Shown: positions 5,044-55,178 of the stretch, one piece after another
Layout of the letters: each line of letters begins with the position of its first letter
Position numbering within the stretch: the stretch's first letter is position 1
Notes under the pieces: model-generated
What the model was told of the DNA's origin: nothing
Databases searched by the model: none
The model's input: only the letters and a program-made list of their open reading frames with translations
Made by a program: the position numbers and the translations under genes
IMG/VR virus record: IMGVR_UViG_3300042558_004148
Span: 207,416 to 271,415 of that record
DNA from: a virus
Length of the DNA stretch: 64,000 nucleotides
Reading direction: 5' to 3' (one strand)

Positions 5044-5589
5044 ATGTCTTTAGAGAAAGAACCTGCTAAAAACAGAAAACCAGTACAGAATAACAGAAAA
5101 CCAAAAAAACCAGTGGCTATCAAAAATATCGCGGATGATATAAGCGATCTTGAGGTTGCTAGAAAAATGATTAAAATATACCAAAGTGCACAGGACAGAA
5201 AACTTGAATTCAATTTAAGCTTTGAATCTGTTAAAAAACTTTTGTCATATCATACATGTTATTATACAAATAGGATATTTGATGAGGATGGTCCATTTTC
5301 AAGAAGTTTTGATCGAATCGATTCAGCAAAAGGATATATCGAAAATAATGTGGTTGCATGTACAGTGGATATAAATGGGAAGAAGAGCAACTTGTCAATG
5401 GAGGAAATAGAATGTCTATATACTAAATTGATAAAATATCACACCAAGAAATCCGATCAGACAATAAAATCTGAAATTTCAAATCCAGTAACTTCCATAG
5501 TATCTGAAATCGTTATATCGAACGAGGAACCAGAAGAAATTCGTGATGGTGAAACATCAGAAGGTACCGCTGAAGTGGAAGATATATAG
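5044..5589 (+). CDS. HNH-family nuclease-like protein (possibly inactive, H->R)
   Basis: CYYTNRIF....SFDRIDSAKGYIENNVVACTVDINGKKSN matches the HNH_3 layout (C..C ... D[H]ID ... N ... N..K), but with DRID in place of DHID. Confidence 0.35.
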   Translation: MSLEKEPAKNRKPVQNNRKPKKPVAIKNIADDISDLEVARKMIKIYQSAQDRKLEFNLSFESVKKLLSYHTCYYTNRIFDEDGPFSRSFDRIDSAKGYIENNVVACTVDINGKKSNLSMEEIECLYTKLIKYHTKKSDQTIKSEISNPVTSIVSEIVISNEEPEEIRDGETSEGTAEVEDI

Positions 5590-5592
5590 TGA

Positions 5593-6444
5593 ATGACTAC
5601 TAAAAAATTTAACAGCTGGCTTACCGAGAATTCCTCGGGTGATACCATGATTGAAATCACTCCGGATATCATTACCAAACTTGAGACCGATACTGGACTT
5701 TCAGAATGGAACAAGAATAAATATTTTAGTAGTGGTCAACCCGCATACAATAGTCAAAATTCATATTCCTCTAGAGGAGCAATTTTATATCAGCAGCCGG
5801 ATAAAAAATTAAGGATCATTATACCATTAATGAAGCCAAGTAATATAAAAAACAATTTTACATCACTTGAGGATTTACTGGAGGTTAATTTGATTCCCGA
5901 TTATATGGCAGGATCTTTTTATATAACAATAGAATTTAGTGAGAATCCCGACATTAAACCAGGATCACTAATAATGGAGGAGGTTAAGAATTGGAACAAC
6001 AGACACAGAATATCTTTCCAGTATAATGCAAAAGATTATAGTGATCTACTTGCTGTCGTAAATAAGGGTCTGGATGAGGCATTCGAATTTCTAAAAGATA
6101 TCAGAATAGTAATACCATCGGATATAAAGAAGATACCCGGGGTTAAAGCATACATGGAGGATAAGGTTAGAGAAATCTATAATAAAATGCTGGAAGAGAT
6201 AAGGGAAACAGGTGATGCTGTGGAAGATATCGACGATAATATATTTGCTCAGCTTATAATAACTATTCTGGAAGAACATCCAAATCTAATGGACGATTTC
6301 AACAACCTACCAGAGAAAGCCAAAGATAAATGGCTTCATGGGGTTAAGGAGATATTTCCTGACGGTAAAATAGAAATAAACAAGAAGTCGATAGACTCAA
6401 TAAAAGCTTTTCTTAACGTTAAAAATTCTTTCTATCTCATATAA
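5593..6444 (+). CDS. hypothetical protein
   Basis: ORF track. Confidence 0.45.
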   Translation: MTTKKFNSWLTENSSGDTMIEITPDIITKLETDTGLSEWNKNKYFSSGQPAYNSQNSYSSRGAILYQQPDKKLRIIIPLMKPSNIKNNFTSLEDLLEVNLIPDYMAGSFYITIEFSENPDIKPGSLIMEEVKNWNNRHRISFQYNAKDYSDLLAVVNKGLDEAFEFLKDIRIVIPSDIKKIPGVKAYMEDKVREIYNKMLEEIRETGDAVEDIDDNIFAQLIITILEEHPNLMDDFNNLPEKAKDKWLHGVKEIFPDGKIEINKKSIDSIKAFLNVKNSFYLI

Positions 6445-10849: not shown

Positions 10850-10882
10850 TTTTTTATCTCCGTCTTTTTTTGTTATATTTGC
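10850..10882 (+). promoter_or_regulatory. phage promoter: upstream element TTTTTTATCTCCGTC plus -7 TATATTTG
   Basis: Matches the recurring element + N9 + TAnnTTTG architecture; about 15 nt before ATG 10897. Confidence 0.55.
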
Positions 10883-10896
10883 TAAAAAATAAAGAT

Positions 10897-11628
10897 ATGT
10901 TTAAATTTTACGAGGTTGGTGGAAAGGTTAGAGACGAGATTTTAGGATTACAGTCTAAAGACGTTGATTATGTTGCAGTTCCGAATGATGCTTTATTAAG
11001 CAAATATAAGGAGGCATATGAAATGTTTCTGTCTCTCGAGAATTATCTTACAACAAATGGATTTGAAATATTCCTATCTACTCCTGATTGCTATACAATT
11101 AGAGCGAAGTTTCCGAAAGACCATGTATATTCAGGCGTAGCGGACTTCGTAATGGCACGAAAAGAAGTTGGTTATGTTACAGGCACAAGAACTCCAATAG
11201 TTAAGCCAGGCACTCTATATGACGATCTAGAGCGAAGAGATTTTACCCTCAATGCTCTTGCTAAGGATGACGATGGAACCATCATAGACTTTTTTAATGG
11301 GATAGACGATCTTAAAGCTGGTGTATTGAAAACACCTCTTGATTGCAAGGTGACATTTGACGACGATCCGCTAAGAATTCTGAGAGCTATTAGATTTTCT
11401 ATAACCAAGGGATTTACCATGACACCACATATGGCCATCGTTATTGATTCCTACAATTATGACGAAAAAATGTCAGTGGTTTCAACCGAGAGAATCAGGG
11501 AGGAATTATATAAATGTTTCAAAGAGAATACATTAGGAACGCTAAGAATTCTTAATGAATTTCCAACTCTAAGAAATTACATTTTTGAAAAAACTGATCT
11601 TTGGTTAAAGCCAACTAACGAAAAATAG
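10897..11628 (+). CDS. tRNA nucleotidyltransferase (CCA-adding enzyme, head domain only)
   Basis: MFKFYEVGGKVRDEILGLQSKDVDYVAV matches the GGxVRD...DxD head motif and RRDFTLNALA matches RRDFTINA. The track start at 10870 is a TTG lying inside the -7 box, so the ATG at 10897 is preferred. Confidence 0.8.
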   Translation: MFKFYEVGGKVRDEILGLQSKDVDYVAVPNDALLSKYKEAYEMFLSLENYLTTNGFEIFLSTPDCYTIRAKFPKDHVYSGVADFVMARKEVGYVTGTRTPIVKPGTLYDDLERRDFTLNALAKDDDGTIIDFFNGIDDLKAGVLKTPLDCKVTFDDDPLRILRAIRFSITKGFTMTPHMAIVIDSYNYDEKMSVVSTERIREELYKCFKENTLGTLRILNEFPTLRNYIFEKTDLWLKPTNEK

Positions 11629-11633
11629 ATAAT

Positions 11634-12371
11634 ATGGCTGATAATATATTCTGTCCGGTGTGCAAGTGTCAATTACACGTAACACATAGTGCAAGGTATG
11701 AATCTAGAGAAGAGCACATCTCAAATCCGAATGGTCCATTTTCTATGAAGGATGGATATCAATGTACCAATGTTAGTTGGTGTGAAGCTTCATATCTAAA
11801 TTATACGTGGATACATGATGGTGATTATTATTCAAATCCACCAGAAGGTATCAGCTACTCTGAGGCTTCCAAGAGATTGAAAGCAGCTAGTGTATCTGGA
11901 ATGGGTTATGCACTTAATTCATGGGAACATTATTACGAATTAGGAAAACTTAATGTCGACAAAAGAAAAAAGACTGTCTATATCGGAAAATACATGATTA
12001 AGATAGAGCCTAAAACTTACGGCTATGATTACCCAATCGAAAAACAATATATGCCAAGAAGATTTGGGTGGAAATTTGAATTTTTCCAGAGGACCAGTGA
12101 TGGATGCTACACAAACATAATACCAACATACAGAATGGTTAGGTATTGTTTGAGACAGTTCAATATGAATTATCGCAACATAAAACAAAACAGCTCTTCC
12201 AGCAATGGATCAATTAAGGAGGCTTTATCGATGATAAATTGTACCAATTGGGGTAGAACCCCTGATGATAGACTTTATGCTAAAATATCATCATTCCTCG
12301 TTAGACTATTCTACCCAAAGAAGGTTAAATACGTAAGGGAAATAGCTGAATCAAATCAAATCAAATATTAA
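11634..12371 (+). CDS. hypothetical Cys-rich protein
   Basis: ORF track; N-terminal CPVCKC...H. Confidence 0.45.
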   Translation: MADNIFCPVCKCQLHVTHSARYESREEHISNPNGPFSMKDGYQCTNVSWCEASYLNYTWIHDGDYYSNPPEGISYSEASKRLKAASVSGMGYALNSWEHYYELGKLNVDKRKKTVYIGKYMIKIEPKTYGYDYPIEKQYMPRRFGWKFEFFQRTSDGCYTNIIPTYRMVRYCLRQFNMNYRNIKQNSSSSNGSIKEALSMINCTNWGRTPDDRLYAKISSFLVRLFYPKKVKYVREIAESNQIKY

Positions 12372-13479: not shown

Positions 13480-13822
13480 AAGTCTAAAATTCTATAGAGA
13501 TCCAGATGGATGGTTTGTTGATCTACCTGAATGGGAAGGTTCTAAAGCTGATCTACAGATGGTTGCAGGAGCTGACGTATTTCTGGATATAATGTCACAG
13601 GGAGAAAATGAGGTTTATTTAACATTATCAGATACTCCAATGGATAACTGCAGCCAATTAACATTCAAAGAAATTGGGAGGTTGGAAGGATTTGAATTAG
13701 GAGAGGGAGCATGGTACGTTCTTAATGAGTATATTGGGATAGAATATAATCATGATATGTGGCTATGTGATGTCACTAAATTTGTATTTGGCGAATTTCC
13801 TAAAATAATATACTTTATATGA
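13472..13822 (+). CDS. hypothetical protein
   Basis: ORF track. Confidence 0.45.
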   Translation: MTRSLKFYRDPDGWFVDLPEWEGSKADLQMVAGADVFLDIMSQGENEVYLTLSDTPMDNCSQLTFKEIGRLEGFELGEGAWYVLNEYIGIEYNHDMWLCDVTKFVFGEFPKIIYFI

Positions 13823-14679
13823 ATAAGCTAGAATACGTAACGAGACAATTAGCGAGAGCTGAAAGAAAAAGATACGAACATTATGTTGTTAGTAGGGTAT
13901 TTCATTTGTTGAATGATCTGTCCATTAAATTCATAACCCAGCAGTATGTAAATCGTCCTAGCGGTAGAGCTTTAACCGACATGTACTTTCCTCAATTTGG
14001 TGTTCATATAGAAGTGGACGAGCCACACCACAACAATCAAATTCAGGAAGATAAGCTAAGAGAACTCGATATAGTAAATGCAACTGGTCACGACATCATA
14101 AGGATAACAGTTTCTAATCAAACGATCGAAGATGTTAATGCGCAGATAGATTATGTTGTTAACCTAATAAAATCTAGGAAGTTAAATGATCCAGATTTTA
14201 AAGAATGGGATCCTGAACTGGAGCATAACACCGAAACATATTTAGCAAAAGGGAATATAGATCTTTCGGATAATTGCTCCTTCATGACCATGGTCGATGG
14301 AGCTAATTGTTTTGGTAATAGTTATAAACCTGGTGGAATTTGGAAGGGCGGAGCCAAGCACCAACACGAGGATAAGATCATATGGTTCCCGAAGTTATAT
14401 CCAAATAAAAAATGGATTAATACTATATCGGATGACGAGGAGATGATTACCGAAAAATCGGTTGATTCGGACATCACTGAAAAGTATGTTGATAAAATGA
14501 AATCAAAAGATCAGCCAAATCGTATAGTCTTTGCAAGAGTAAAGAGTCCGCTTGGTGAAGTTATGTACAGGTTTAGAGGAGAATATAAATTTGATACTGG
14601 TGCATCCAATTACGATGACGGTCTAATATTCAGAAGAATAGCAACTTCAGTAAAAACTTATAGAGACAATAGAATATAA
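13819..14679 (+). CDS. hypothetical protein with N-terminal DUF559/endonuclease-like domain
   Basis: LTDMYFPQFGVHIEVDEPHH...DKLRELDIVNATGHDIIRI resembles the DUF559 / Vsr-like nuclease fold (…iEvDG.H……D..Rd..L…G..vlR). Confidence 0.35.
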   Translation: MNKLEYVTRQLARAERKRYEHYVVSRVFHLLNDLSIKFITQQYVNRPSGRALTDMYFPQFGVHIEVDEPHHNNQIQEDKLRELDIVNATGHDIIRITVSNQTIEDVNAQIDYVVNLIKSRKLNDPDFKEWDPELEHNTETYLAKGNIDLSDNCSFMTMVDGANCFGNSYKPGGIWKGGAKHQHEDKIIWFPKLYPNKKWINTISDDEEMITEKSVDSDITEKYVDKMKSKDQPNRIVFARVKSPLGEVMYRFRGEYKFDTGASNYDDGLIFRRIATSVKTYRDNRI

Positions 14680-19016: not shown

Positions 19017-20054
19017 ATGGATTCAAAATCAGTAATACGATCAATCATAGAAGGAAAGAGCGGGTTACATTTTTCTAAAGGTTGTAAAAAAATGTATAAA
19101 GAACTATATGATGAGATTTGCGAAAATACAAAATTCTTAGATGAGACAAATCCAAGAATAATTGATCGAGCATATCACTACATAAATGGGATAACCGAAT
19201 CTAAAAAATGTATCGAATGTTCAAATCCTATGTCTAGGATTGATTCTACCTTTTGTTCTAAAAAATGCATGGATTCTAGTGAATTCTTAAAAAAGAAAAA
19301 GGAGGAAACAAACTTAAAGAAATTTGGTTCTACAAATGTTTCTAAAACTGATTATTTTAAGGAAAAGTATAAAAATACAATGAATAAAAAATATGGTGTA
19401 GATCATTATTCTAAAACTAAAAGCTATTTAGAAAAGTATAGGGAAACTTCTCTTGAACGATACGGAGAATCGAATCCAGCAAAAAGTGATTTGATAAAAA
19501 AGAAGACTGAAGATACCAATATTGAAAGATATGGAAGTAAAAGTCCTTTGCAAAACCCCGCAATTAAACAAAAAACCATAGAAACTTTGACCTCTAAATA
19601 CAACATCGATCATAATTCTAAAATAGAAGGAAGATATGAAAAAATGAAAGAGAATTCAAATAATAATTTTGGTACCGACCATCCGATGCAAAATGAGGAA
19701 GTTTTTGATAAATGCATGAAAAACTCTTATCGTTTCAAAGAATATAAATTACCCAGTGGTAAAATTGTTAAGGTTCAAGGATATGAGAATTTTGCTTTAG
19801 ATAAATTACTGGAGTCCTATAATGAAAATGATTTGATTATAGGGACTAAAGAGATAAAAACTATTATAGGTAGAATCGAATACTTTTTCGAAGGTGGAAA
19901 AAAAGTATATCATCCTGATATTTACATAGTATCAGAAAATAAAATTGTTGAAGTTAAGTCAGCCTACACGATTAAGCTTGATTTAGAAAAAAACGAAGCT
20001 AAAAGAAAAGCTGTTTTAGATAAAGGAATTAATTTTGAATTTATGATTTTTTAA
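19017..20054 (+). CDS. putative nuclease: Zn-ribbon + six ~23-aa tandem repeats + C-terminal PD-(D/E)xK domain
   Basis: CIECSN...CSKKC zinc ribbon. Repeats of the form K.K.E....K(Y/F)G..(H/N).... x6. C-terminal YHPDIYIV...IVEVKSAY gives D...E.K (restriction-endonuclease-like). Confidence 0.45.
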   Translation: MDSKSVIRSIIEGKSGLHFSKGCKKMYKELYDEICENTKFLDETNPRIIDRAYHYINGITESKKCIECSNPMSRIDSTFCSKKCMDSSEFLKKKKEETNLKKFGSTNVSKTDYFKEKYKNTMNKKYGVDHYSKTKSYLEKYRETSLERYGESNPAKSDLIKKKTEDTNIERYGSKSPLQNPAIKQKTIETLTSKYNIDHNSKIEGRYEKMKENSNNNFGTDHPMQNEEVFDKCMKNSYRFKEYKLPSGKIVKVQGYENFALDKLLESYNENDLIIGTKEIKTIIGRIEYFFEGGKKVYHPDIYIVSENKIVEVKSAYTIKLDLEKNEAKRKAVLDKGINFEFMIF

Positions 20055-20064
20055 TTTTACAAAT

Positions 20065-20922
20065 ATGAAAGACCCAATCGGAGATCGTATGAAATCTTTT
20101 TATGAAGATAGAACTCGATACAAGTTAACAAGAAGAACTTACACAATCATAAGAATTGACGGCAAGTCATTTAGTAATTACACAAAGGGATTAGAAAGAC
20201 CTTTCGACGAAGGACTAATCAATGACATGAATGCTACCACTGCATACCTTTGCAAAAACATTCAAGGAGCTAAATTAGGTTATGTACAATCAGACGAGAT
20301 TAGTTTAGTTCTAACTGACTTCGATGATCTAGGAACACATGCTTGGTTTGATAACAACCTACAGAAAATGGCGTCTGTAGCTGCTTCTATGGCAACAGCT
20401 AAATTTAATGAATTAAGGATTGCTAGAGCTTTTAGACAATATGAATGTCTATTCGATACGCCATTACAGATGAATGCCGATGAGATATTAGAATTTCTAT
20501 CTAAAATCAAGAAAGCTGAGTTTGACGCTAGGGTATTCCAAATCCCTTTTATCGACGAGGTTTGCAACTATTTTATTTGGAGACAACAAGATGCAGTAAG
20601 AAACTCAATTTCTTCGGTTGCACAAAGCCTTTATAGTACAAAAGAACTACATGGGGTTAAGACTGATGGAATGCAAGACCTAATCTTTCAGAAAGGAATC
20701 AATTGGAATGACTATGATTTTCGTAAGAAAAGAGGAGCAGTAATTGGCAAAGTAGAAAAGTTATTTACAAAGACCTCAAATTATTATGATCCTAATACAT
20801 CTTACATCCCGTCTGAACACATTTTTACTAGAAATGTATGGGAAGTTATTGAAACCCCAACGTTCACTCAAGACAAAGATTTTCTTAGAGATATTCTAAA
20901 CAAAGAAATAAAATCAGTTTAA
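20065..20922 (+). CDS. Thg1-like protein (tRNA-His guanylyltransferase family, 3'-5' polymerase)
   Basis: IIRIDGKSFSNYTKGLERPFDE, GYVQSDEISLVL and NNLQKMASVAASMATAKF align with the Thg1/TLP palm-domain motifs (RiDG..F, QSDE). Confidence 0.8.
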   Translation: MKDPIGDRMKSFYEDRTRYKLTRRTYTIIRIDGKSFSNYTKGLERPFDEGLINDMNATTAYLCKNIQGAKLGYVQSDEISLVLTDFDDLGTHAWFDNNLQKMASVAASMATAKFNELRIARAFRQYECLFDTPLQMNADEILEFLSKIKKAEFDARVFQIPFIDEVCNYFIWRQQDAVRNSISSVAQSLYSTKELHGVKTDGMQDLIFQKGINWNDYDFRKKRGAVIGKVEKLFTKTSNYYDPNTSYIPSEHIFTRNVWEVIETPTFTQDKDFLRDILNKEIKSV

Positions 20923-23686: not shown

Positions 23687-24574
23687 ATGTACATCTTAAA
23701 TCTCACGGACAATGAAAAGTCCGACATTAAATTTCAAATCTCAAAATTCCCTGATGGACAGCAATCAGTAACAATCACTGATTGTACAAATGCATCTGAT
23801 ATATCTCATCCCGTAAAAATTAAGTCCCGTCTAAATTCTTTTAAGGATTTAGAACTTATCGTTTGTGCAACACAAGCTTTACGAGATCTTGGTACTAAAG
23901 AAATTCATTTGTATTCTCCTTATTTTGTAGGTGCTCGTTCAGATCGTAAATTCGTTCAAGGATCCACGAACTATCTAAAAAATGTAATCTGTCCTATTAT
24001 CAATTCACAAAATTTCGAATCGGTAAATGTACTTGATCCTCACTCGGACGTACTCGAAGCTTGCTTAAATAATTACGTTAAGGAAGATAATCATCGACTT
24101 GTAAAATTTGCACTACCTCCAATCGATAATAAAGATGGTGCTCAAAGAAGAGTGGTTCTTGTTTCACCTGATGCTGGGGCTTACAAAAAAATCTTTGATG
24201 TTGCTCAGAAATTCGCCATCGAAAATGTGGTTACTGCTATGAAGCATAGGGACATCGAAACTGGGAAAATCACACATACAGAAATTCCTAATATCGATCA
24301 ATATGGTGAAGATCATAAATTTGTAATTGTCGACGATATCTGTGACGGTGGAAGAACCTTCATCGAATTGGCAAAGGAGATCCGTAAACATAACGCGATT
24401 TCTGACATCTATTTAATTGTTACCCATGGAATCTTCTCAGCAGGATTAAAACCACTGAATGATGCATTCACAGGAATATTCTGCACTAATTCATATTCAG
24501 ATGTGAACGATCCTGAATTTAGCCTACGTAACGATAATGAATTACATAGACTAAAGCAACTTAACGTTTTCTAA
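23687..24574 (+). CDS. ribose-phosphate pyrophosphokinase family protein (Prs-like; candidate ADP-ribose pyrophosphokinase)
   Basis: KFPDGQQSV, YSPYFVGARSDRK (cf. PYfgYARQDRK), VLDPHSD, VVLVSPDAGAYKK and FVIVDDICDGGRTF (PRTase loop) track Prs along its whole length. Confidence 0.75.
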   Translation: MYILNLTDNEKSDIKFQISKFPDGQQSVTITDCTNASDISHPVKIKSRLNSFKDLELIVCATQALRDLGTKEIHLYSPYFVGARSDRKFVQGSTNYLKNVICPIINSQNFESVNVLDPHSDVLEACLNNYVKEDNHRLVKFALPPIDNKDGAQRRVVLVSPDAGAYKKIFDVAQKFAIENVVTAMKHRDIETGKITHTEIPNIDQYGEDHKFVIVDDICDGGRTFIELAKEIRKHNAISDIYLIVTHGIFSAGLKPLNDAFTGIFCTNSYSDVNDPEFSLRNDNELHRLKQLNVF

Positions 24575-29247: not shown

Positions 29248-30765
29248 ATGTTTAAACCCACAAGTTTATTTTACACTGATGGCTATAAAATTGGCCACAA
29301 GAAAATGTTAGCTCCCGGAACAACCCGTTTGTACGGTACTTGGATTCCACGAAGCACAAAGCATGCTCCTGAGGGAGTAGATAAAATAGTATCATTCGGT
29401 CAACAATTGGTAGTGAAATGGTTACATGATGAATTCGAAGAGAATTTTTTCAAACAACCAATTAGCGTTGCTACTAAATTTTCCGATGATATGTCAAAGT
29501 ATTTAGGACTTCCGTTCGATGGTTCACACTTCTCGGAATTACATCATCTGGGTTACTTGCCTATTAGAATTAAAGCTTTACCTGAAGGTATCGAAACAAA
29601 CCCTAACATCCCTCACATGACATTTGTGAATACTGTGGATGGATTCGGATGGTTAACATTATATTTGGAGACCATCATATCTTCATTGGCATGGAAACCA
29701 GCAACCTCTGCTACACTTGCACTAAGATACCGAAGAAATTTGGTTGAATGGGTTACGAAAACTGATCCGGCTAACGCTTGGTTAATTCCTTTCCTATGTC
29801 ACGACTTCTCTGCTAGAGGTTTATCTCCATGGGATATGTTATCTAGTGGTTTAGGACACGCTACGTCATTCAGAGGATCTGACACTATTGTTTGTATTCC
29901 TGCAGCACGATACTTCTATAACGAGCCAGAAAACGATGTCTGCATCAATTCTGTTAACGCTTCTGAACACTCAGTATCAACAACAAAGATATTTACTGTA
30001 GGAGAACAACAAATGATCTCCGATTGGTTAACTGAATTCCCTACAGGAATCCTATCAATTGTATCTGACACTTTTGATTTATGGAAACTTATCACGGAAT
30101 ATCTTCCTGCAAATAAAGAGCAAATCATGTCACGTGATGGAAAACTTGTTATCCGTCCTGACTCTGGTGATCCAGTAGATATTATCTGTGGTTCAGTGGA
30201 TGTGTTTAAGCACAATGATCCTAATTCACCACAAAGAAAAGGTGTAGTTGAATTACTTTGGGATATCTTCGGTGGAACAATCAACGAACAAGGATACAAA
30301 GTTCTTGATCCACATATTGGTGCGATCTACGGGGATTCAATCACAGTTGGTCGTCAGATTCAAATCTATGAAAGATTAGAAGAAAAAGGTTTTGCTTCAA
30401 CAAACATCGTGTTGGGAATCGGATCATTCACTTATCAAATGAATACTAGAGATACTTTGGGATTCGCTGCTAAAGGAGCTTGGTTCGAAGTAGAAGAACC
30501 TATATTTGGTGAATTTTTAGACCAAAATCTAAATACTGAAAAGGTTGCTTATGACATCTATAAAGATCCAATCACTGACGACGGAACTAAAAAATCATTG
30601 AAGGGATTAGTTCAAGTTGTAATGGAAGGCGATGAATATCATGTTAATACTCAATGTACTTGGGAACAGGAGGAGCAGGGCTTTTTACAAACAATCTATG
30701 AAGAGGGAAGATTCGTTAACGAAACAACTCTTGAGGAAGTACGTAACAAATTAAATTCTTTATAA
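29248..30765 (+). CDS. nadV: nicotinamide phosphoribosyltransferase family protein (Nampt/NadV-like; candidate nicotinamide ADP-ribose transferase)
   Basis: LFYTDGYKIGHKKMLAPGTTRLYGTWIPRS matches the Nampt N-terminus (tDsYK.tH..yP..t..yS....R). NASEHSVSTT matches AAEHST. Length 505 aa. Confidence 0.75.
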   Translation: MFKPTSLFYTDGYKIGHKKMLAPGTTRLYGTWIPRSTKHAPEGVDKIVSFGQQLVVKWLHDEFEENFFKQPISVATKFSDDMSKYLGLPFDGSHFSELHHLGYLPIRIKALPEGIETNPNIPHMTFVNTVDGFGWLTLYLETIISSLAWKPATSATLALRYRRNLVEWVTKTDPANAWLIPFLCHDFSARGLSPWDMLSSGLGHATSFRGSDTIVCIPAARYFYNEPENDVCINSVNASEHSVSTTKIFTVGEQQMISDWLTEFPTGILSIVSDTFDLWKLITEYLPANKEQIMSRDGKLVIRPDSGDPVDIICGSVDVFKHNDPNSPQRKGVVELLWDIFGGTINEQGYKVLDPHIGAIYGDSITVGRQIQIYERLEEKGFASTNIVLGIGSFTYQMNTRDTLGFAAKGAWFEVEEPIFGEFLDQNLNTEKVAYDIYKDPITDDGTKKSLKGLVQVVMEGDEYHVNTQCTWEQEEQGFLQTIYEEGRFVNETTLEEVRNKLNSL

Positions 30766-34898: not shown

Positions 34899-35804
34899 GT
34901 GATGAAAGCAATAAAAGAAATCGTACAGTATATAGAAACTGATAATCCAACCGGGACATTAAGTATACTGGAGCCAAATTACTCATCCGTAAGTGAGGAA
35001 GGCATATTACCAATACAATTAAACACCAAGAATTTCCATTTGGAAGACCATAGGATCAAATCAGTAATGAACAAAGAAACTATTGCTGATATCATGGCTA
35101 TGCACGGTATAGATTCAAGAGCGATGACAAAAAATACAATCGATAATGAAGCTGAAGTTAACCTAGAGAAAAAAATCTATGGGATGCTAGAAGAATCAGG
35201 AAGAAATAACTACCGAAGTGAATGGAGCAAAACTAGATGGTTCATTTATAATTGGTTGGGTTATTATCCTAAGGTTAGAATATTAGCAACAGAGTCTTCA
35301 CCTGGGAGTCTTTTAAAGCATATACATATAGCAGGAAGTAAAATAGCAAACAAGTCAAGAGGTGGAGGTGCTGATTTTATTATAGTTAGCCAATCAATAG
35401 GATCACTGCTATCGGATCTTAGCCAATTCTCTTTCAATATGGAAGAAGCAACAAATTTCATAGAGAACGGATCATCAATCAGACAAATAGGTGTTCTTGC
35501 TGGAAGATATAGGGTACTTATAAATCCTTTACTTAGTAATGATATAGATCAAACCAGTATTGTAATCGGAGCATCCACAAAAGAAGGACAGGAAGGTGTC
35601 TATCATATTGCTATGCTTCCTACCTATGATGAAATCGAGAACGAAAACTACGCAACTCTAAGAACTGAAATCATCACGGTGAGGTCACAAAGAATGGCAA
35701 CAATAAAAACCAACAACTCTGATTTCAAATACATAACAATTCCGCTTACTAAATCTAGACACAATATAATAACTCACCTATATAAAAAAATATTTAAAAA
35801 ATAA
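34899..35804 (+). CDS. hypothetical protein
   Basis: ORF track. Confidence 0.45.
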   Translation: MMKAIKEIVQYIETDNPTGTLSILEPNYSSVSEEGILPIQLNTKNFHLEDHRIKSVMNKETIADIMAMHGIDSRAMTKNTIDNEAEVNLEKKIYGMLEESGRNNYRSEWSKTRWFIYNWLGYYPKVRILATESSPGSLLKHIHIAGSKIANKSRGGGADFIIVSQSIGSLLSDLSQFSFNMEEATNFIENGSSIRQIGVLAGRYRVLINPLLSNDIDQTSIVIGASTKEGQEGVYHIAMLPTYDEIENENYATLRTEIITVRSQRMATIKTNNSDFKYITIPLTKSRHNIITHLYKKIFKK

Positions 35805-46091: not shown

Positions 46092-46495
46092 ACACCCATC
46101 CTATCAAAAAATCTGATTTGGGATTTCATGGTAACCTATTTGGTGGGAAATTATTAGCATGGATAGATGCTGCAGCTGCTGGATATTCTATGCAGCTTTG
46201 TGATACACCAAGAATGGTAACAGTATCCATCGATAAGTGTTATTTTGAAAAACCAGCTAGAGAGGGTCAGCTTCTTAAGATATATGGTACACCTAGTAAA
46301 TTGGGAACTACCTCAGTTACTCTTTATATGGAAGCTAGAGCTCATAATGTATATACCGGTAATCAGGTGATAGTTCTAAGAACAAACATAAGATTTGTTT
46401 CTATAGACGAAGGAGGTAACCCTATACCAATCGGGGATAAAGGAAGAAACAGAATAAGCTCCATGATAGAAGATAACAAGGAATCGAATATCTGA
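46079..46495 (+). CDS. hotdog-fold acyl-CoA thioesterase-like protein
   Basis: LGFHGNLFGGKLLAWIDAAAAGYSM matches the 4HBT/YciA motif. The start at 46079 (ATG) is preferred over the track start. Confidence 0.55.
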   Translation: MELLNTHPIKKSDLGFHGNLFGGKLLAWIDAAAAGYSMQLCDTPRMVTVSIDKCYFEKPAREGQLLKIYGTPSKLGTTSVTLYMEARAHNVYTGNQVIVLRTNIRFVSIDEGGNPIPIGDKGRNRISSMIEDNKESNI

Positions 46496-46517
46496 AGCCC
46501 AAAATAAATCAAAAAAT

Positions 46518-46553
46518 AAAGCCTGGAATTTTTTTATTCCGGGCTTTATTTTT
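46518..46553 (+). terminator. rho-independent terminator overlapping the next promoter
   Basis: AAAGCCTGGAAtttttttaTTCCGGGCTTT + ATTTTTAT; TATATTTG at 46553..46560. Confidence 0.6.
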
Positions 46554-46585
46554 ATATTTGCATTATAAAATTAATAAGATCCGAT

Positions 46586-49183: not shown

Positions 49184-49217
49184 ATTTTTTTATCTCGTAT
49201 AAATTGATTAAATTTGT
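49184..49217 (+). promoter_or_regulatory. phage promoter driving tRNA-like gene A: TTTTTTTATCTCGTA - N9 - TAAATTTG
   Basis: The -7 box lies about 15 nt upstream of the predicted 5' end of the tRNA-like RNA at 49232. Confidence 0.5.
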
Positions 49218-49231
49218 ATAACAATTAAAAA

Positions 49232-49311
49232 GGTCCTGGAGCTTAATCTGACGTGGAAGTCAGGTCTGCCTCTAAAACAGATAGCATCGGGTTCGAATCC
49301 TGCTAGGATCA
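49232..49311 (+). tRNA. tRNA-like gene A (80 nt, non-canonical D region), anticodon loop C-U-CUA-A-A (amber-suppressor-like CUA)
   Basis: Acceptor GGTCCTG pairs with TAGGATC (two G.U pairs). T arm CGGG-TTCGAAT-CCTG. Anticodon stem TCTG/CAGA closes the loop CTCTAAA. Discriminator A. No encoded CCA. Confidence 0.45.
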
Positions 49312-49317
49312 CAAAAG

Positions 49318-49330
49318 AGTTCTTTGAAAT
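49318..49330 (+). repeat. 13-bp direct repeat AGTTCTTTGAAAT (copy 1)
   Basis: Identical 13-mer recurs at 50148..50160, bracketing about 820 bp. Confidence 0.5.
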
Positions 49331-49597
49331 AGTAAGATAGCAGATAGACCTATATCAGCAGAATCCCACAGGGAGTCAGAAATGACGAGCAAGACGGAGC
49401 TCCTATCAGATTAACGCGTTGAGGAGGCACTCAAAGTTTTCCGAGAGGTTAACAGGTGTATAAACGATGGTTTGGGTAGAACGGATGTTAAAGGCGAGAT
49501 ATAGGTAGAAAGGATGGGGTAACCCACGAATGTGTAAATCTTAAGGTCTTACTATTTTAATTATTCTTGATTGATAATTAACACTTAAAAAATATTT

Positions 49598-51058: not shown

Positions 51059-51228
51059 AGTCAGGTGGCGGAATTGGTAGACGCTATTTTGAAAGCAAAC
51101 AGTTGCAGGATTAGATCGGCACCAGCTAAGTAGTATCAAATGCCATTAAGGTACTGGGTCGTAATAACTGATATTAACCGCTCGCGGTTGGCATGTAATC
51201 CATGCAGGTTCGAGTCCTGCCCTGACTA
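51059..51228 (+). tRNA. tRNA-like gene B (about 170 nt): type-II-like 5' half and T arm/acceptor separated by an insertion of about 100 nt
   Basis: 5' AGTCAGG-TG-GCGGAATTGGTAGACGC (canonical acceptor + D arm). 3' GCAGG-TTCGAGT-CCTGC + CCTGACT + A. The acceptor strands are complementary. About 100 nt too long for a tRNA. Confidence 0.45.
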
Positions 51229-51734: not shown

Positions 51735-51864
51735 AGTCAGGTGGCGGAATTGGTAGACGCTAGACAGGTAACCAACTACAACTGTAATAAACCCGCTGAT
51801 CACGGTTAATAAGAACAGCTCTGTCGCAGAGGTTGGTATACAGGTTCGAATCCTGTCCTGGCTA
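51735..51864 (+). tRNA. tRNA-like gene C (about 130 nt): first 28 nt identical to gene B; insertion of about 57 nt
   Basis: 5' AGTCAGGTGGCGGAATTGGTAGACGCTA is identical to B. 3' ACAGG-TTCGAAT-CCTGT + CCTGGCT + A. The acceptor pairs with one G.U pair. Confidence 0.45.
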
Positions 51865-52009
51865 CTTAGCAAGGCATAAACGATAAGGAAAATCTGTCAC
51901 AAGTTTATGTTAAGTTGCAGACAGACCGAAATGCTTACGGTTAACAGGGCTTACCCATAAAGTCCAGAGAGCATAATCTAACGGGTGACTGATGGAAAGA
52001 CATCAAAAT

Positions 52010-52096
52010 AGTCAGGTGGTGTAATAGGCAACACCCTTCATTATCAGGCCCCGTAAGGCTGGAAGGACGACGCAGGTTCGAATCCTGTCCTGACCA
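52010..52096 (+). tRNA. tRNA-like gene D (87 nt) with an extended (about 32-nt) anticodon-arm-like hairpin
   Basis: Acceptor AGTCAGG/CCTGACC (A1.C72). D arm GTGT-AATAGGCA-ACAC. Long hairpin CCTTC...CAG(G)CC-CCGTAA-GGCTG...GAAGG. T arm GCAGG-TTCGAAT-CCTGT. Confidence 0.45.
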
Positions 52097-52217
52097 CTAA
52101 AACAACTAGCGGAGTAGGCACAAATCTTCGTTAACAGTGGTATTTAAGTAGGTTTGGGGATGCTGTGTAGTCCATTGAAAACTAAACCGAAGATTGCTTA
52201 TGTAGTTGTTTTTATAC

Positions 52218-52283
52218 AGTCAGATGAAAGTAGGCTAAGACGAATTAAGTTTCGCGTTGCAGGTTCGATTCCTGCTCTGACTA
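52218..52283 (+). tRNA. tRNA-like gene E (66 nt, degenerate; possibly a pseudo-tRNA)
   Basis: Acceptor AGTCAGA/TCTGACT and T arm GCAGG-TTCGATT-CCTGC. The internal region is too short for both a D arm and an anticodon arm. Confidence 0.35.
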
Positions 52284-52676: not shown

Positions 52677-52742
52677 ATTAAAAATAAATTTAATAAAAAA
52701 AGAAACTTTTTTAAAAACAAATATATAATAGGTATGAATTAG

Positions 52743-53084
52743 ATTAAATTACAAACTCCGAAACTTGTCATCATAACCAGACAAGACATCAACCCAGGTT
52801 ATCAAGTTGTTCAATCAACACATTCAATAGCTGACTTTGCTTATGAACATCCTGAAAAGTTCAAAGAATGGAAAGAGACATCAAATTCTATAATTTGTCT
52901 CTCCGCAAGATCAGAAGAGCACCTAATTAAACTTTACGAGAAATACAGAACCGTCACAGAGGCATCATTGTTTTTTGAGCCTGATGTTGACGCATATACT
53001 TCTGCGTGTTTTTTTGGAACTCCACAAGTCAGAAAAGCATTCTCGCATCTACCGCTATCATTAAAAACACAACCAACATCATGA
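52743..53084 (+). CDS. PTH2-like peptidyl-tRNA hydrolase; no canonical start codon in the open frame
   Basis: KLVIITRQDINPGYQVVQSTHSIADFAY and WKETSNSIICLSARSEEHLIKLYEKY align with PTH2 ([29 protein letters not shown] / [27 protein letters not shown]). The frame opens at ATT directly after ATG-AAT-TAG. Stop overlaps the next gene (ATGA). Start coordinate approximate. Confidence 0.55.
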   Translation: MKLQTPKLVIITRQDINPGYQVVQSTHSIADFAYEHPEKFKEWKETSNSIICLSARSEEHLIKLYEKYRTVTEASLFFEPDVDAYTSACFFGTPQVRKAFSHLPLSLKTQPTS

Positions 53085-53494
53085 AAGGAATTCTAAAAGT
53101 TAGAAACATAGATTCAATTAAGAGATTGAGTCTTAAGAGGGCTATCGGCAAGCAGAAAGGTCTGAGATCGAGAATGTCAAAAATTCGAACATCAATATTA
53201 TTTCTAGAGGAACATAATATGCTCACCGAGGATCAGCTATGGGATATAATGGTGATTTATTTAAAATATCATGCTGAATATTCCAAATTACAATATCTGA
53301 TCTATGTTAGGAAAAGAAGCTCCTGGCTCAATTATACCACGCTATCCCAGGAAACAATGGATGAATATATCAACAAAATCTCAGTTAATTCACACAATAT
53401 TACTAGCAATCTACCATACGAGATCTATTATAAATATAGGGATGCTATGACAAGGAGAGAACTAGAATTAAAACAAATAATAAATAATAAATAA
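53081..53494 (+). CDS. hypothetical protein
   Basis: The internal ATG at 53081 (MKGILKV) overlaps the PTH2-like stop; preferred over the track GTG at 53006. Confidence 0.4.
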   Translation: MKGILKVRNIDSIKRLSLKRAIGKQKGLRSRMSKIRTSILFLEEHNMLTEDQLWDIMVIYLKYHAEYSKLQYLIYVRKRSSWLNYTTLSQETMDEYINKISVNSHNITSNLPYEIYYKYRDAMTRRELELKQIINNK

Positions 53495-53545
53495 TAAATA
53501 ATTATGTGCAACTAGATTAACAACAAAGAAGAGCTCGTTATTGCA

Positions 53546-54091
53546 ATGAGCCAATGCGAGCAGACTAAAGGACAGTCTGTATTAGATCACGGTAAATCTG
53601 TGGAATCCCATTTATTCGATTTACTTCATCATCTACGCCACGGATCCGATCTGAAATACGAATGGAAAATTCCAGAATTCGTATACGAAAACAAGGATCT
53701 ATTACTTAAGTCATTGCCAGATGACGAGACATTAAGTCTCTATACAATTTACCACGACTGTGGAAAAATTTTATGTATGGAAATAGATGCCGACGGACGT
53801 AAACACTTCCCTAATCACGCAGAAATATCTCATAAGACCTTTACCCGATTTTTTGAAAATAGTGTTGCAGCGGAGCTAATTCGATGTGATATGGACATTC
53901 ATTGTCTTAAGTCCGAAGGTGTAGAGGAATTTGCAAAAAATCCACACTGTTTAACCTTATTATTAGCTGGATTAGCAGAAATCCATTCAAACTCTCAGAT
54001 GTTTGGTGGGATGGATAGTACAAGTTTTAAAATCAAATGGAAAGCCATCACCCAACGAGGCAAACAAATATTAAAAATAAAAACAATTTAA
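53546..54091 (+). CDS. HD-domain phosphohydrolase-like protein
   Basis: VLDHGKSVESH ... LYTIYHDCGK ... FPNHAEISH gives the H..H ... HD.GK ... H..H layout. Confidence 0.45.
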   Translation: MSQCEQTKGQSVLDHGKSVESHLFDLLHHLRHGSDLKYEWKIPEFVYENKDLLLKSLPDDETLSLYTIYHDCGKILCMEIDADGRKHFPNHAEISHKTFTRFFENSVAAELIRCDMDIHCLKSEGVEEFAKNPHCLTLLLAGLAEIHSNSQMFGGMDSTSFKIKWKAITQRGKQILKIKTI

Positions 54092-54447: not shown

Positions 54448-54463
54448 TCTCACCTTTTTTATA
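54430..54463. terminator. bidirectional rho-independent terminator between convergent genes
   Basis: AAAAAAGGTGAGATttaATCTCACCTTTTTTAT; A-run and T-run flank the hairpin. Confidence 0.65.
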
Positions 54464-55178
54464 TTGAATTGTAGCCATTCTTTATGGAATCGTGGTGGTT
54501 TATCCAGAATCTTTCTCTCTCGAAAATGAATTTATCAGCTTCTGAATATTCCTTTGTATCATCCGGGATCTTAACAACCTCTATCACTTCAAATGTCCAA
54601 TCACTAATCTCGGTTGTCTTTATCTCATTGTGGAATTTAGTGCTACCGAGTTGGAAAAAGTGTTGATACCATCGGAAAGTAAATGCTTGTGTTGTCTTTC
54701 CTATATAGGATAGACCAGTTTTCTTATTGGTTATCTTGTATATGACAGGAATGTGTTTACCGTTCATTACGTTATCCTCATTCCACTTTACGGTCTCAAT
54801 AAGCTTTGCTTCGTGTTTACATTCATCGGAGCAATATTCAGATCCCTTATTTAAACAATTAGCATCATTGTACTTATCAATTATTCTGAATTCAGATCCA
54901 CAAGTGGAACACTCCCTTGATGAAAATAACCTAGAATGCCCAGAGTTTTCCGTTATTTCAGTTATTGCTAGAAGATATTCATTAGCATCTATATCCTTAT
55001 CAAGAACTCTTAGTGGAAATTTTCTACCGTATTCCTCGTCTATAATTAGTTTAGCTTCCTTTCTATCAGTAGCTGAAACCTTACCACTGAATATGGGAGG
55101 GAAAGCCCATTTCCCATATGAATATGGGTCACTCGGATTATTCTTACCCTTTATCTGATAATAGAATTCCTTCATCAA
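54459..55178 (-). CDS. GIY-YIG nuclease-domain protein with N-terminal Cys cluster (homing-endonuclease-like)
   Basis: IPVIYKITNKKTGLSYIGKTTQAFTFRWYQH...E...NGYN gives GIY ... YIG ... R ... H ... E ... N. N-terminal CSTCGSE...CSDEC. Confidence 0.6.
   Translation of the reverse strand: MMKEFYYQIKGKNNPSDPYSYGKWAFPPIFSGKVSATDRKEAKLIIDEEYGRKFPLRVLDKDIDANEYLLAITEITENSGHSRLFSSRECSTCGSEFRIIDKYNDANCLNKGSEYCSDECKHEAKLIETVKWNEDNVMNGKHIPVIYKITNKKTGLSYIGKTTQAFTFRWYQHFFQLGSTKFHNEIKTTEISDWTFEVIEVVKIPDDTKEYSEADKFIFERERFWINHHDSIKNGYNSI

What the first reader, a model, noticed from the sequence alone, without database searches (positions are those of the whole stretch)
52734..53084. PTH2-like ORF has no ATG/GTG/TTG start: in-frame TAG two codons after an ATG, or a non-canonical AUU start
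The 113-codon open frame is a clear PTH2 homologue. It is translationally coupled to the next gene through an ATGA overlap, so it is probably expressed. It contains no canonical start codon, which is why the six-frame ORF track omits it. Immediately upstream, in frame, is ATG-AAT-TAG. The possibilities are UAG read-through or suppression (see gene A), an AUU initiation codon at 52743, or a sequencing or real nonsense mutation. The CHC2 zinc-finger ORF at about 52289 also lacks an ATG and also opens with ATT-AAA-TTA, which is the same nine nucleotides.
Basis: seen in the sequence. Interest (0 to 1): 0.65.

Follow-up and report, generated by a model that had tools for sequence, protein, structure and literature searches.

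The report
Amber-gated tRNA-hydrolase gene in jumbo phage
The in-frame TAG is not an error: this phage gene and its neighbour keep a stop codon just after their start in 124 of 126 related phage sequences, apparently so that they are translated only when a phage-encoded stop-reading tRNA is present.

Summary
The sequence reads ATG(52734)-AAT-TAG(52740)-ATT, followed by 113 sense codons of a divergent PTH2-fold protein, with no canonical start before codon 76.

Comparison with relatives decides the interpretation.
- In 124 of 126 related loci that could be assessed (58 clusters at 90% identity), the gene has an ATG, then 0-7 sense codons, then TAG. TAA, TGA or a sense codon never occupy that position.
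- The relatives include 635-kb metagenomic phages and the cultured Tenacibaculum phage pT24.
- The codon after TAG is usually ATT, but is GTA, AAC, ACA or ACT in about 15 loci. Two distant homologues carry the TAG at codon 34. An AUU start therefore fails.
- A nearby HD-domain gene (53504-54091, TAG at 53513) has the same leader in 53 of 54 loci, and the two genes are fused in some phages.
- tRNA(CUA) genes lie on the same strand beside these genes in at least 57 loci. The window has one at 49232-49311. It is a non-canonical 8/4 tRNA supported by covariation, and ARAGORN missed it.
- The genomes otherwise use the standard code. In pT24 the PTH2-HD fusion is the only gene interrupted by an amber codon.

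Best reading: a gene-specific amber gate read by a phage suppressor tRNA. Why these two genes are gated is inferred, not shown.

The parts
52734..53084 (+). PTH2-like gene: ATG, AAT, in-frame TAG, 113 sense codons, TGA
   Evidence: The same architecture is present in 124 of 126 assessable related loci.
52740..52742 (+). Conserved amber codon (the gate), followed by ATT at 52743-52745; the base after TAG is always a purine
   Evidence: TAG in 117 of 117 loci in the first anchor-based count. The next codon is ATT 101, GTA 10, AAC 3, ATA 1, ACA 1, ACT 1. Unique leaders are tabulated.
52721..52728 (+). ATATATAA motif 6 nt upstream of the ATG (possible phage promoter or leader element)
   Evidence: a motif of this kind lies 10-30 nt upstream of the PTH2 ATG in 57 of 95 unique upstream sequences. 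It is absent upstream of the HD gene. Its function is inferred only.
49232..49311 (+). Non-canonical tRNA with anticodon CUA (loop CUCUAAA): 8-bp acceptor stem, 4-bp T stem, atypical D region. Candidate amber suppressor.
   Evidence: ARAGORN finds nothing. Rfam tRNA scores 25.4 bits, below the gathering score of 29. Sequence. In an alignment of 15 homologues, 98.2% of cells pair and 18 of 22 pairs show compensatory changes; slid controls pair at 33-42%.
49209..49216 (+). TAAATTTG, a match to the Bacteroidota-type -7 promoter motif TAnnTTTG, 23 nt upstream of the tRNA(CUA)
   Evidence: TAnnTTTG lies at -18 to -28 in 23 of 33 unique tRNA(CUA) upstream regions. The background in the window is 0.04 per 60 nt. 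The motif identity comes from my own knowledge.
53504..54091 (+). HD-domain gene with the same leader: ATG TGC AAC TAG(53513-53515) ATT..., normally called from the internal ATG at 53546
   Evidence: 53 of 54 loci have ATG, 0-7 codons, then TAG. The segment after the TAG (INNKEELVIAM) is conserved as protein. The model has pLDDT 96.6 and its best fold hits are a tRNA nucleotidyltransferase. PTH2-HD fusions occur in L031, L033, L036-L040, L045 and pT24.
53081..53494 (+). 137-aa ORF overlapping the PTH2-like stop (ATGA), of unknown function, lying between the two amber-led genes
   Evidence: Searches give no family. A homologue sits downstream of the PTH2-like gene in L007. The ATGA overlap is not conserved in L002.

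Best explanation
The PTH2-like gene starts at ATG 52734. Its third codon, TAG, is a conserved and functional amber codon that a phage-encoded suppressor tRNA(CUA) decodes; in this window the candidate is the 8/4-type tRNA at 49232-49311. Without that tRNA the ribosome makes only Met-Asn and terminates. With it, the full 115-residue protein is made. The HD-domain gene at 53504 carries the same leader, so both enzymes are licensed by the same tRNA. Both look like tRNA 3'-end enzymes.

Shown here:
- the TAG is conserved as TAG;
- it is specific to these two gene families;
- it is linked to tRNA(CUA) genes;
- the rest of the genome uses the standard code.

Inferred:
- The TAG sits next to the start, and is followed by A, because this favours suppression over RF1 and wastes only a di- or tripeptide when the gate is closed.
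- The gate matches the amount of a tRNA-ester hydrolase and a phosphohydrolase to suppressor activity. This could be feed-forward, clearing products of read-through. It could instead be negative feedback on the charged suppressor, in the manner of RF2 autoregulation.
- The inserted amino acid is unknown.
For: - TAG, never TAA, TGA or a sense codon, follows an in-frame ATG by 0-7 codons in 124 of 126 assessable loci. These represent 101 unique proteins, 58 clusters at 90% identity and 33 at 80%. The preceding codon varies freely, with at least 12 different codons.
- 'Q' at this position in database proteins is TAG translated with code 15. This was checked against L063 and L093.
- L048 and L049 (31% identity) carry the TAG at codon 34, with a tRNA(CUA) upstream.
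- ARAGORN finds canonical tRNA(CUA) genes in 17 loci; in L066 the tRNA starts 4 nt after the PTH2 stop. A custom scan finds tRNA(CUA)-like genes in 57 sources, all on the same strand: 43 are 8/4-type and 16 are 7/5-type.
- The window's 8/4 tRNA(CUA) is supported by covariation. 8/4 tRNAs have been shown to work as amber suppressors in E. coli, including at codon 2 of sfGFP (PMC5389517).
- The HD gene has the same leader in 53 of 54 loci, and fusions of the two genes exist.
- The standard code applies elsewhere. In the window, coding density is 0.88 under code 11 and 0.86 under code 15, and TAG ends 14 of 104 ORFs. In the complete pT24 genome the densities are 0.916 and 0.904, TAG ends 34 of 278 ORFs, there is one tRNA(CUA), and the PTH2-HD fusion is the only amber-interrupted gene.
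- GenBank truncates the pT24 gene's N-terminus.
Against: - There is no expression, proteomic or tRNA-charging evidence.
- The window's tRNA(CUA) is structurally unusual. It scores below Rfam's gathering threshold and ARAGORN does not call it.
- No tRNA(CUA) was found in roughly half of the loci, although many of those have short flanks.
- ATT after the TAG is conserved more strongly than read-through strictly requires (55 of 71 unique PTH2 leaders and 34 of 41 HD leaders). A reinitiation model would predict this.
- An active suppressor would also read through the 12-13% of the phage's own genes that end in TAG. Those genes show no enrichment of back-up stops.
- Why two tRNA-end enzymes should be gated in this way remains unexplained.
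Confidence: 0.78

Rival explanations
1. Mini-ORF with termination-reinitiation. ATG-(N)-TAG is a 1-8 codon leader ORF. The ribosome terminates at TAG and reinitiates on the adjacent AUU, so the protein starts at 52743. This would be a start-stop type translational coupler or regulator.
For: ATT or ATA follows the TAG in about 87% of loci in both gene families. Some leaders are bare ATG-TAG: 7 PTH2 loci and about 12 HD loci. The leader length is variable and the leader is not conserved as protein.
Against: - The stop is TAG in all 124 PTH2 loci and 53 HD loci, although TAA ends about 78% of genes in these genomes. Reinitiation has no need for a particular stop codon.
- The codon after TAG is GTA, GTT, AAC, ACA or ACT in about 15-18 loci, and no nearby start codon precedes the conserved residues.
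- L048 and L049 have the TAG at codon 34, downstream of the conserved Gln/His motif.
- This model does not explain the tight, same-strand linkage to tRNA(CUA) genes.
Confidence: 0.1
2. An RF1 sensor with no dedicated tRNA. The early UAG is read through by near-cognate host tRNAs when RF1 activity is low, so expression reports termination capacity. This would be analogous to the in-frame UGA of prfB.
For: UAG is the only stop read solely by RF1, which could explain the exclusive use of TAG. The gated products are translation-related. About half of the loci show no tRNA(CUA) in the sequence available.
Against: tRNA(CUA) genes are adjacent in at least 57 loci. They include two unrelated tRNA architectures, and many have their own promoter motif. 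pT24 carries exactly one tRNA(CUA) and one amber-interrupted gene. The loci lacking a tRNA mostly have short or one-sided flanks.
Confidence: 0.06
3. Genome-wide TAG reassignment (code 15). The phage reads every TAG as an amino acid, and this gene merely happens to contain one.
For: Some public gene callers translated these genes with TAG as Q. Low-GC phages of Bacteroidota are the classic code-15 lineages (bioRxiv 10.1101/2021.08.26.457843).
Against: - Coding density does not rise under code 15 in the window, the flanks or the complete pT24 genome.
- TAG terminates 12-13% of ORFs, with the next gene starting a few bases later; for example 5589 to 5593 and 11628 to 11634.
- Long structural ORFs in pT24 are intact.
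- A neutral synonym of CAA/CAG would not be retained at 100% at one position.
Confidence: 0.04
4. Assembly error, recent nonsense mutation or pseudogene.
For: None beyond the single-sequence appearance.
Against: The same TAG is present in 124 independent assemblies from different studies, and in a Sanger- and PCR-checked cultured phage genome. The downstream frame is conserved as protein.
Confidence: 0.01

Closest known systems
Stop-codon recoding in phages (TAG to Gln, 'code 15'), proposed as a translational gate on late and lysis genes (Ivanova 2014; Borges et al., bioRxiv 10.1101/2021.08.26.457843; Peters et al., PMC9523058)
   Same: A phage-encoded suppressor tRNA(CUA) acts in a host with the standard code. 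An in-frame TAG blocks translation until the suppressor acts. The phages are low-GC and infect Bacteroidota.
   Different: Here only two genes are affected, one per genome when they are fused. The TAG sits at codons 2-9 rather than being scattered. The gated genes encode tRNA-end enzymes, not lysis or structural proteins. TAG remains an ordinary terminator for 12-13% of genes. No release factor or aminoacyl-tRNA synthetase was found among the window's ORFs of 250 aa or more.
prfB (RF2) autoregulation through a conserved early in-frame stop codon
   Same: A translation-related gene carries a deeply conserved early in-frame stop. Passage through that stop depends on the balance between termination and an alternative decoding event.
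   Different: prfB needs a +1 frameshift at UGA, and its own product senses that codon. Here the frame is unchanged, the codon is UAG, and a dedicated tRNA lies nearby. Whether the product feeds back on suppression is unknown.
Pyrrolysine system (a conserved in-frame UAG in methylamine methyltransferase genes, with the dedicated tRNA(CUA) gene pylT nearby)
   Same: A gene-specific, position-conserved UAG is linked to a structurally unusual tRNA(CUA) gene. ARAGORN even labels these tRNAs 'tRNA-Pyl'.
   Different: The UAG lies in a variable, low-confidence N-terminal stretch at a variable distance from the ATG, and elsewhere in L048 and L049, so the residue is unlikely to be catalytic. Several unrelated tRNA scaffolds are used. 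No PylS-like protein was seen among the window's larger ORFs. The tRNA lacks the compact tRNA-Pyl features.
Lambda bar minigenes and peptidyl-tRNA hydrolase
   Same: A two-codon ATG-NNN-stop unit in a phage. Such minigenes generate dipeptidyl-tRNA drop-off, which is exactly the substrate class of peptidyl-tRNA hydrolases (my own knowledge).
   Different: bar minigenes are free-standing and use UGA or UAA. Here the stop is always UAG and is contiguous, in frame, with a conserved coding sequence.
PTH2 genes of jumbo phages (Iyer et al. 2021, PMC7824862)
   Same: The protein family and genomic setting are the same: tRNA-repair islands of jumbo phages. The window also encodes an RNA ligase, a Thg1-like protein and a CCA-adding head domain.
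   Different: That survey does not mention an in-frame stop or a link to a suppressor tRNA. Mycobacteriophage homologues have ordinary starts.
8/4 tRNAs (Mukai et al. 2017, PMC5389517)
   Same: The acceptor branch is 12 bp, built from an 8-bp acceptor stem and a 4-bp T stem. Such tRNAs occur in phages, and engineered 8/4 tRNA(CUA) molecules suppress amber codons in E. coli.
   Different: The tRNAs here have a short variable region (4-6 nt), an 8-nt linker and an atypical D hairpin. They carry CUA naturally.

Membership tests
PTH2 peptidyl-tRNA hydrolase (PF01981 / TIGR00283) | Sequence match above the curated family threshold | tested here: not met
   Pfam scores 22.7 bits against a cut-off of 23. 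NCBIfam Pth2 scores 23.8 against 126 and TIGR00283 scores 19.8 against 82. A profile search against PDB gives PTH2 chains only at E = 0.003-0.7.
PTH2 peptidyl-tRNA hydrolase (PF01981 / TIGR00283) | PTH2 alpha/beta fold | tested here: met
   The AF2 model has pLDDT 81.6. The 11 best Foldseek PDB hits are all PTH2 proteins (2zv3, 1q7s, 3erj, 1xty, 1rlk, 1rzw), with probability 0.72-1.0, but TM is only about 0.5.
PTH2 peptidyl-tRNA hydrolase (PF01981 / TIGR00283) | Catalytic residues (Lys before the AAQxxHA motif, and Asp of the D-x-G-x-T motif; residue roles recalled from the S. solfataricus Pth2 work) | tested here: inconclusive
   In the alignment to MJ0051, 'GKGKMVAQGGHA' corresponds to 'NPGYQVVQSTHS', so Gln and His are kept but the Lys position is Tyr. 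An invariant E-P-D and a Thr are present at the position of the Asp motif.
PTH2 peptidyl-tRNA hydrolase (PF01981 / TIGR00283) | Hydrolysis of peptidyl-tRNA | not testable with these tools
   This needs an enzyme assay.
Code-15 (TAG-reassigned) phages | Phage-encoded suppressor tRNA(CUA) | tested here: met
   The window carries one at 49232-49311, supported by covariation. Relatives carry them too. pT24 has an annotated tRNA-Sup.
Code-15 (TAG-reassigned) phages | In-frame TAG in many genes, with coding density restored only under code 15 | tested here: not met
   Window density is 0.88 under code 11 and 0.86 under code 15. The mean for the flanks is 0.78 against 0.82, and that gain equals the PTH2 and HD genes alone. 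pT24 is 0.916 against 0.904.
Code-15 (TAG-reassigned) phages | TAG not used as a terminator | tested here: not met
   TAG ends 14 of 104 ORFs in the window, 75 of 868 in the flanks and 34 of 278 in pT24.
AUU-initiated genes (infC type) | AUU, or another near-cognate start, conserved at the start position across orthologues | tested here: not met
   GTA (10), AAC (3), ACA (1) and ACT (1) follow the TAG in PTH2 loci, and GTT or ACA in HD loci. L048 and L049 have a mid-gene TAG.
8/4 tRNAs (Mukai 2017) | A 12-bp acceptor branch made of an 8-bp acceptor stem and a 4-bp T stem | tested here: met
   In helix 1, 7 of 8 pairs covary. In helix 4, 4 of 4 pairs are maintained, and 98.2% of cells pair overall.
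8/4 tRNAs (Mukai 2017) | The long variable arm of the allo-tRNA (Ser-type) subgroup | tested here: not met
   The variable region is only 4-6 nt.
Pyrrolysine decoding | PylS/PylBCD genes and the compact tRNA-Pyl architecture | tested here: inconclusive
   No aminoacyl-tRNA synthetase appears among the 19 window ORFs of 250 aa or more that were scanned. The tRNA architecture differs. The rest of the genome lies outside the window.
prfB-like autoregulatory recoding | The gene product acts on the very event that permits its own synthesis | not testable with these tools
   It would require showing that the PTH2-like or HD protein acts on (aminoacyl- or peptidyl-) tRNA(CUA).

The most novel reading that the evidence does not exclude
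The suppressor tRNA and the amber-led PTH2-like and HD genes form a self-contained translational circuit. In it, a structurally non-canonical phage tRNA(CUA) exists mainly to license two tRNA 3'-end enzymes, or to be held in check by them. This would be either a sentinel-tRNA checkpoint or an RF2-like feedback loop that sets the level of amber suppression in an otherwise standard-code phage. In pT24 the circuit would have one tRNA and one client gene.
Probability: 0.3. Interest if true: 0.9.

Novelty: new variant of a known kind. Interest (0 to 1): 0.78.

Why it matters
- Phage suppressor tRNAs are usually explained as tools for genome-wide code switching or for matching codon usage. Here a suppressor appears to serve one or two specific genes, and those genes encode enzymes that act on tRNA ends. 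This points to a dedicated regulatory circuit built from a stop codon and a tRNA.
- The finding explains why these genes are truncated or missed in annotation. Examples are pT24 BPT24_235 and many database proteins that start at 'VVITR' or 'MNPGYQ'.
- It adds a natural 8/4-type amber suppressor that standard tRNA finders overlook.
- It offers a cultured system, pT24 on Tenacibaculum, in which programmed amber read-through can be tested directly.
- The compact leader (ATG-NNN-TAG-ATT-A) and its tRNA could also serve as a natural orthogonal expression switch for Bacteroidota.

Tried and rejected
- Megablast of the region against GenBank phages found nothing. tblastn was needed instead.
- ARAGORN found no tRNA in the window. 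At gathering threshold Rfam found only the anticodon-less tRNA-like elements. The real tRNA(CUA) appeared only in E-value mode combined with a CTCTAAA search.
- I asked whether those four tRNA-like elements could be suppressors. They lack an anticodon arm.
- I tested the gene upstream of the RNA ligase (2647-2940, ending in TAG just before ATG 2944) as a second read-through case. It is rejected: the ligase starts at its family's usual N-terminus.
- An extra 3-4 bp helix between the tRNA linker and the variable region had an inconsistent register between subgroups, so I dropped it.
- Back-up stops are not enriched after TAG-terminated ORFs.
- The sigma-70 promoter and terminator scan was uninformative.
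- An initiator-type tRNA(CUA) starting translation at UAG is rejected. An in-frame ATG is always present upstream, and the tRNAs lack the three G:C pairs in the anticodon stem and the 1:72 mismatch.
- Literature searches found no earlier description linking PTH2 or HD genes to an in-frame amber codon.

Full report
OBSERVATION

Window 52734-52745 reads ATG AAT TAG ATT. The frame then runs for 113 sense codons to TGA at 53082-53084. That stop overlaps the next ORF's ATG (53081) as ATGA. The first canonical start codon after the TAG is TTG at 52968, codon 76. The description is therefore accurate.

- Pfam PF01981 scores 22.7 bits against a cut-off of 23.
- NCBIfam Pth2 scores 23.8 bits against a cut-off of 126.

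The fold supports the assignment. An AlphaFold model built on 30 homologues has pLDDT 81.6. Its 11 best Foldseek matches in the PDB are all PTH2 proteins (MJ0051, Bit1, AF2095, S. solfataricus Pth2, TA0108), although TM is only about 0.5. In the profile alignment the conserved Gln and His are kept, but the position of the catalytic Lys (as I recall it) is Tyr. I therefore call the protein PTH2-like.

COMPARATIVE RESULT

A protein search returned 97 homologues. The full-length ones begin M-x-Q-I-..., for example P0002 'MNQIKLQQPKL' against the window's 'MN*IKLQTPKL'. Many others are called from internal V, L or M codons.

I then fetched DNA for three sets of loci:
- 49 IMG/VR loci, from contigs up to 508 kb;
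- 80 metagenome loci;
- 2 loci from metagenome-assembled genomes.

In every locus where the 5' end is present, the frame contains an ATG, then 0-7 sense codons, then TAG. A uniform recount gives 124 of 126 assessable loci. These comprise 101 unique proteins, 58 clusters at 90% identity and 33 at 80%. The two exceptions are one sequence seen twice (L042 and L043, 38% identical).

The 'Q' in database proteins is TAG translated with code 15. For example, P0005 corresponds to L063 'ATG AAT CAC TAG ACA'. The codon before the TAG varies among at least 12 codons, while the TAG never changes. This refutes assembly error, a recent nonsense mutation and a pseudogene.

AUU START VERSUS READ-THROUGH

The codon after TAG is ATT in 101 of 117 loci. 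In the others it is GTA (10), AAC (3), ATA (1), ACA (1) or ACT (1), and it always starts with a purine. Two distant homologues, L048 and L049 (31% identity), start normally and carry their TAG at codon 34, after the conserved Gln/His motif. Reinitiation cannot rescue those two genes.

A simple coupling mini-ORF would also have no reason to avoid TAA, which ends about 78% of genes in the window.

THE tRNA

ARAGORN finds canonical tRNA(CUA) genes in the short flanks of 17 loci. In L066 a textbook cloverleaf starts 4 nt after the PTH2 stop.

The window itself gave no ARAGORN call. A sub-threshold Rfam tRNA match at 49239-49311 (25.4 bits) contains CTCTAAA. The element at 49232-49311 has these features:
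- an 8-bp acceptor stem;
- a 4-bp T stem;
- a 5-bp anticodon stem closing the loop CUCUAAA;
- an atypical D region.

Fifteen homologues from other loci pair in 98.2% of cells, and 18 of 22 pairs show compensatory changes. Slid controls pair at 33-42%.

A custom scan finds tRNA(CUA)-like genes in 57 sources. All are on the same strand as the PTH2-like gene, and often lie tens to hundreds of bases upstream. Of the tRNAs found, 43 are 8/4-type and 16 are 7/5-type. In 23 of 33 unique upstream regions, TAnnTTTG sits 18-28 nt before the tRNA. From my own knowledge, TAnnTTTG is the Bacteroidota -7 promoter motif. 8/4 tRNAs are known from bacteria and phages, and engineered ones suppress amber codons in E. 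coli, including at codon 2 of GFP (PMC5389517).

A SECOND GATED GENE

The HD-domain gene is normally called from ATG 53546. It is actually preceded in frame by ATG TGC AAC TAG ATT AAT AAT AAA... starting at 53504. The same leader occurs in 53 of 54 loci, and the residues between the TAG and the internal ATG are conserved as protein.

Several further results bear on this gene:
- The two genes are fused in L031, L033, L036-L040, L045 and pT24.
- In some phages the two leaders are almost identical, for example L093 and L094.
- The HD model (pLDDT 96.6) is closest to the A. aeolicus A-adding tRNA nucleotidyltransferase, and then to YfbR- and HDDC2-type phosphohydrolases.
- A scan of all loci for ATG followed within 8 codons by TAG and then a long ORF finds only three classes: PTH2 (114), HD (52) and fusions (9). 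The remaining hits are ordinary adjacent genes, remnants disrupted by homing endonucleases, or spurious non-coding-strand ORFs.

NOT A RECODED GENOME

In the window, TAG ends 14 of 104 greedy ORFs, often with the next gene starting a few bases later. Coding density is 0.88 under code 11 and 0.86 under code 15. Across the flanks of all loci, the gain under code 15 (0.78 to 0.82) equals the PTH2 and HD genes alone.

tblastn identified the same gene in two kinds of record:
- uncultured 460-735-kb phages, for example LR745206, which reads ATG AAC AAT TAG ATT;
- the cultured Tenacibaculum phage pT24.

I assembled the complete pT24 genome of 234,670 bp and scanned it:
- Coding density is 0.916 under code 11 and 0.904 under code 15.
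- TAG ends 34 of 278 ORFs.
- Structural ORFs up to 9.7 kb are intact.
- There is one tRNA(CUA), annotated as tRNA-Sup.
- Exactly one gene is interrupted by an amber codon, the PTH2-HD fusion (ATG AAA TAG ATA at 194083).

GenBank annotates that gene from an internal ATG (BPT24_235). The genome announcement does not mention it.

MECHANISM

Shown: a gene-specific amber codon, conserved in position class, that is linked to phage tRNA(CUA) genes in genomes with the standard code.

Most likely, translation starts at the ATG and proceeds only when the suppressor decodes the UAG.

Inferred from general knowledge of translation:
- RF-mediated termination on very short peptidyl-tRNAs is inefficient.
- Amber suppression is favoured by a 3' purine.

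An early UAG-A should therefore be suppressed efficiently while costing only a di- or tripeptide when the gate is closed.

Why these two enzymes are gated is open. Both look like tRNA 3'-end enzymes. They sit in a tRNA-repair-rich region that also encodes:
- an RNA ligase (2944-4083);
- a CCA-adding head domain (10870-11628);
- a Thg1-like protein (20065-20922).

Plausible purposes are:
- matching clean-up capacity to read-through load;
- negative feedback on the charged suppressor, as with RF2;
- a checkpoint on the integrity of a sentinel tRNA.

COMPARISON AND NOVELTY

The general principle is known: in-frame stop codons read by phage suppressor tRNAs act as a translational gate (Borges et al.). 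PTH2 genes in jumbo phages are also known (PMC7824862), as are 8/4 tRNAs.

As far as the searchable literature shows, the following are new:
- the restriction of the gate to one or two genes;
- its fixed position at the extreme N-terminus;
- the nature of the gated genes;
- its occurrence in phages that otherwise use the standard code;
- the natural 8/4 amber suppressor.

I rate this a new variant of a known kind, with high interest because a cultured system exists for testing it.

Noticed in passing
window 51059-51228, 51735-51864, 52010-52096, 52218-52283 (+); also L002 3086-3156 and 3395-3474; pT24 192032-192110 and 192399-192477: Four tRNA-like elements share the acceptor stem AGTCAGG/CCTGACT, a Leu-type D arm and a T arm. 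They have no anticodon arm; in its place are 20-110-nt inserts. In pT24 the equivalents have an over-long anticodon stem with a 5-nt loop. They lie between the tRNA(CUA) and the gated genes. They cannot decode, and their role (processing signals, decoys or enzyme substrates) is unknown.
   Followed up: partly
window 49312-49597, 51865-52009, 52100-52217: ORF-free stretches, relatively GC-rich, flank the tRNA and tRNA-like genes. A similar stretch is present in L002 (3158-3395). Rfam gives no match. They may be structured RNAs or processing spacers.
   Followed up: no
window 2944-4083, 10870-11628, 20065-20922 (+): Three tRNA/RNA-repair genes lie in the same window: a DRB0094-type RNA ligase, a 252-aa protein with only the head domain of a CCA-adding or poly(A) polymerase enzyme, and a Thg1-like tRNA-His guanylyltransferase.
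   Followed up: partly
LC168164.1 (pT24) 194083-195036; locus L132 2956-3909: GenBank CDS BPT24_235 is annotated from an internal ATG (194218). The real gene is a PTH2-HD fusion that starts ATG AAA TAG ATA at 194083. Many database homologues are truncated in the same way.
   Followed up: yes
L093, L094, L065, L069: The leader cassette (upstream bases, ATG...TAG and the next codon) is nearly identical between the PTH2 and HD genes of the same phage. For example, both read ATG AAA GAA GAA TTY ACN TAG GTN in L094. This suggests copying or gene conversion of the leader as a unit.
   Followed up: partly
L072, L076, L077 about 1750-2970; L006 4362-4685; L078 about 900: An N-terminal fragment of the PTH2 gene, with its amber leader, is fused to a homing-endonuclease-like ORF. 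An HD gene is disrupted after its leader. Mobile elements appear to target these genes.
   Followed up: no
L042 and L043 4598-4673: A tRNA with anticodon UUA (ochre suppressor type) lies just downstream of the one PTH2 homologue (38% identity) that has no in-frame stop.
   Followed up: no
window 54459-55178 (-), 19017-20054 (+), 13819-14679 (+): Other genes in the window include a GIY-YIG-type homing endonuclease, another homing-endonuclease-like ORF, and a PvuRts1I-like/SRA-domain endonuclease, which would recognise modified cytosine.
   Followed up: no
window 29248-30765, 23687-24574, 34899-35804 (+): The window also encodes a nicotinamide phosphoribosyltransferase, a phosphoribosyltransferase or PRPP-synthetase-like protein (NAD salvage), and a 301-aa Gp23-like (T4 major capsid family) protein. 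This fits a T4-related jumbo myovirus.
   Followed up: no
window 46452-46571: Sub-threshold Rfam matches to Thr_leader occur on both strands (35 and 29 bits against a gathering score of 55). This is most likely a hairpin or terminator rather than a leader.
   Followed up: no
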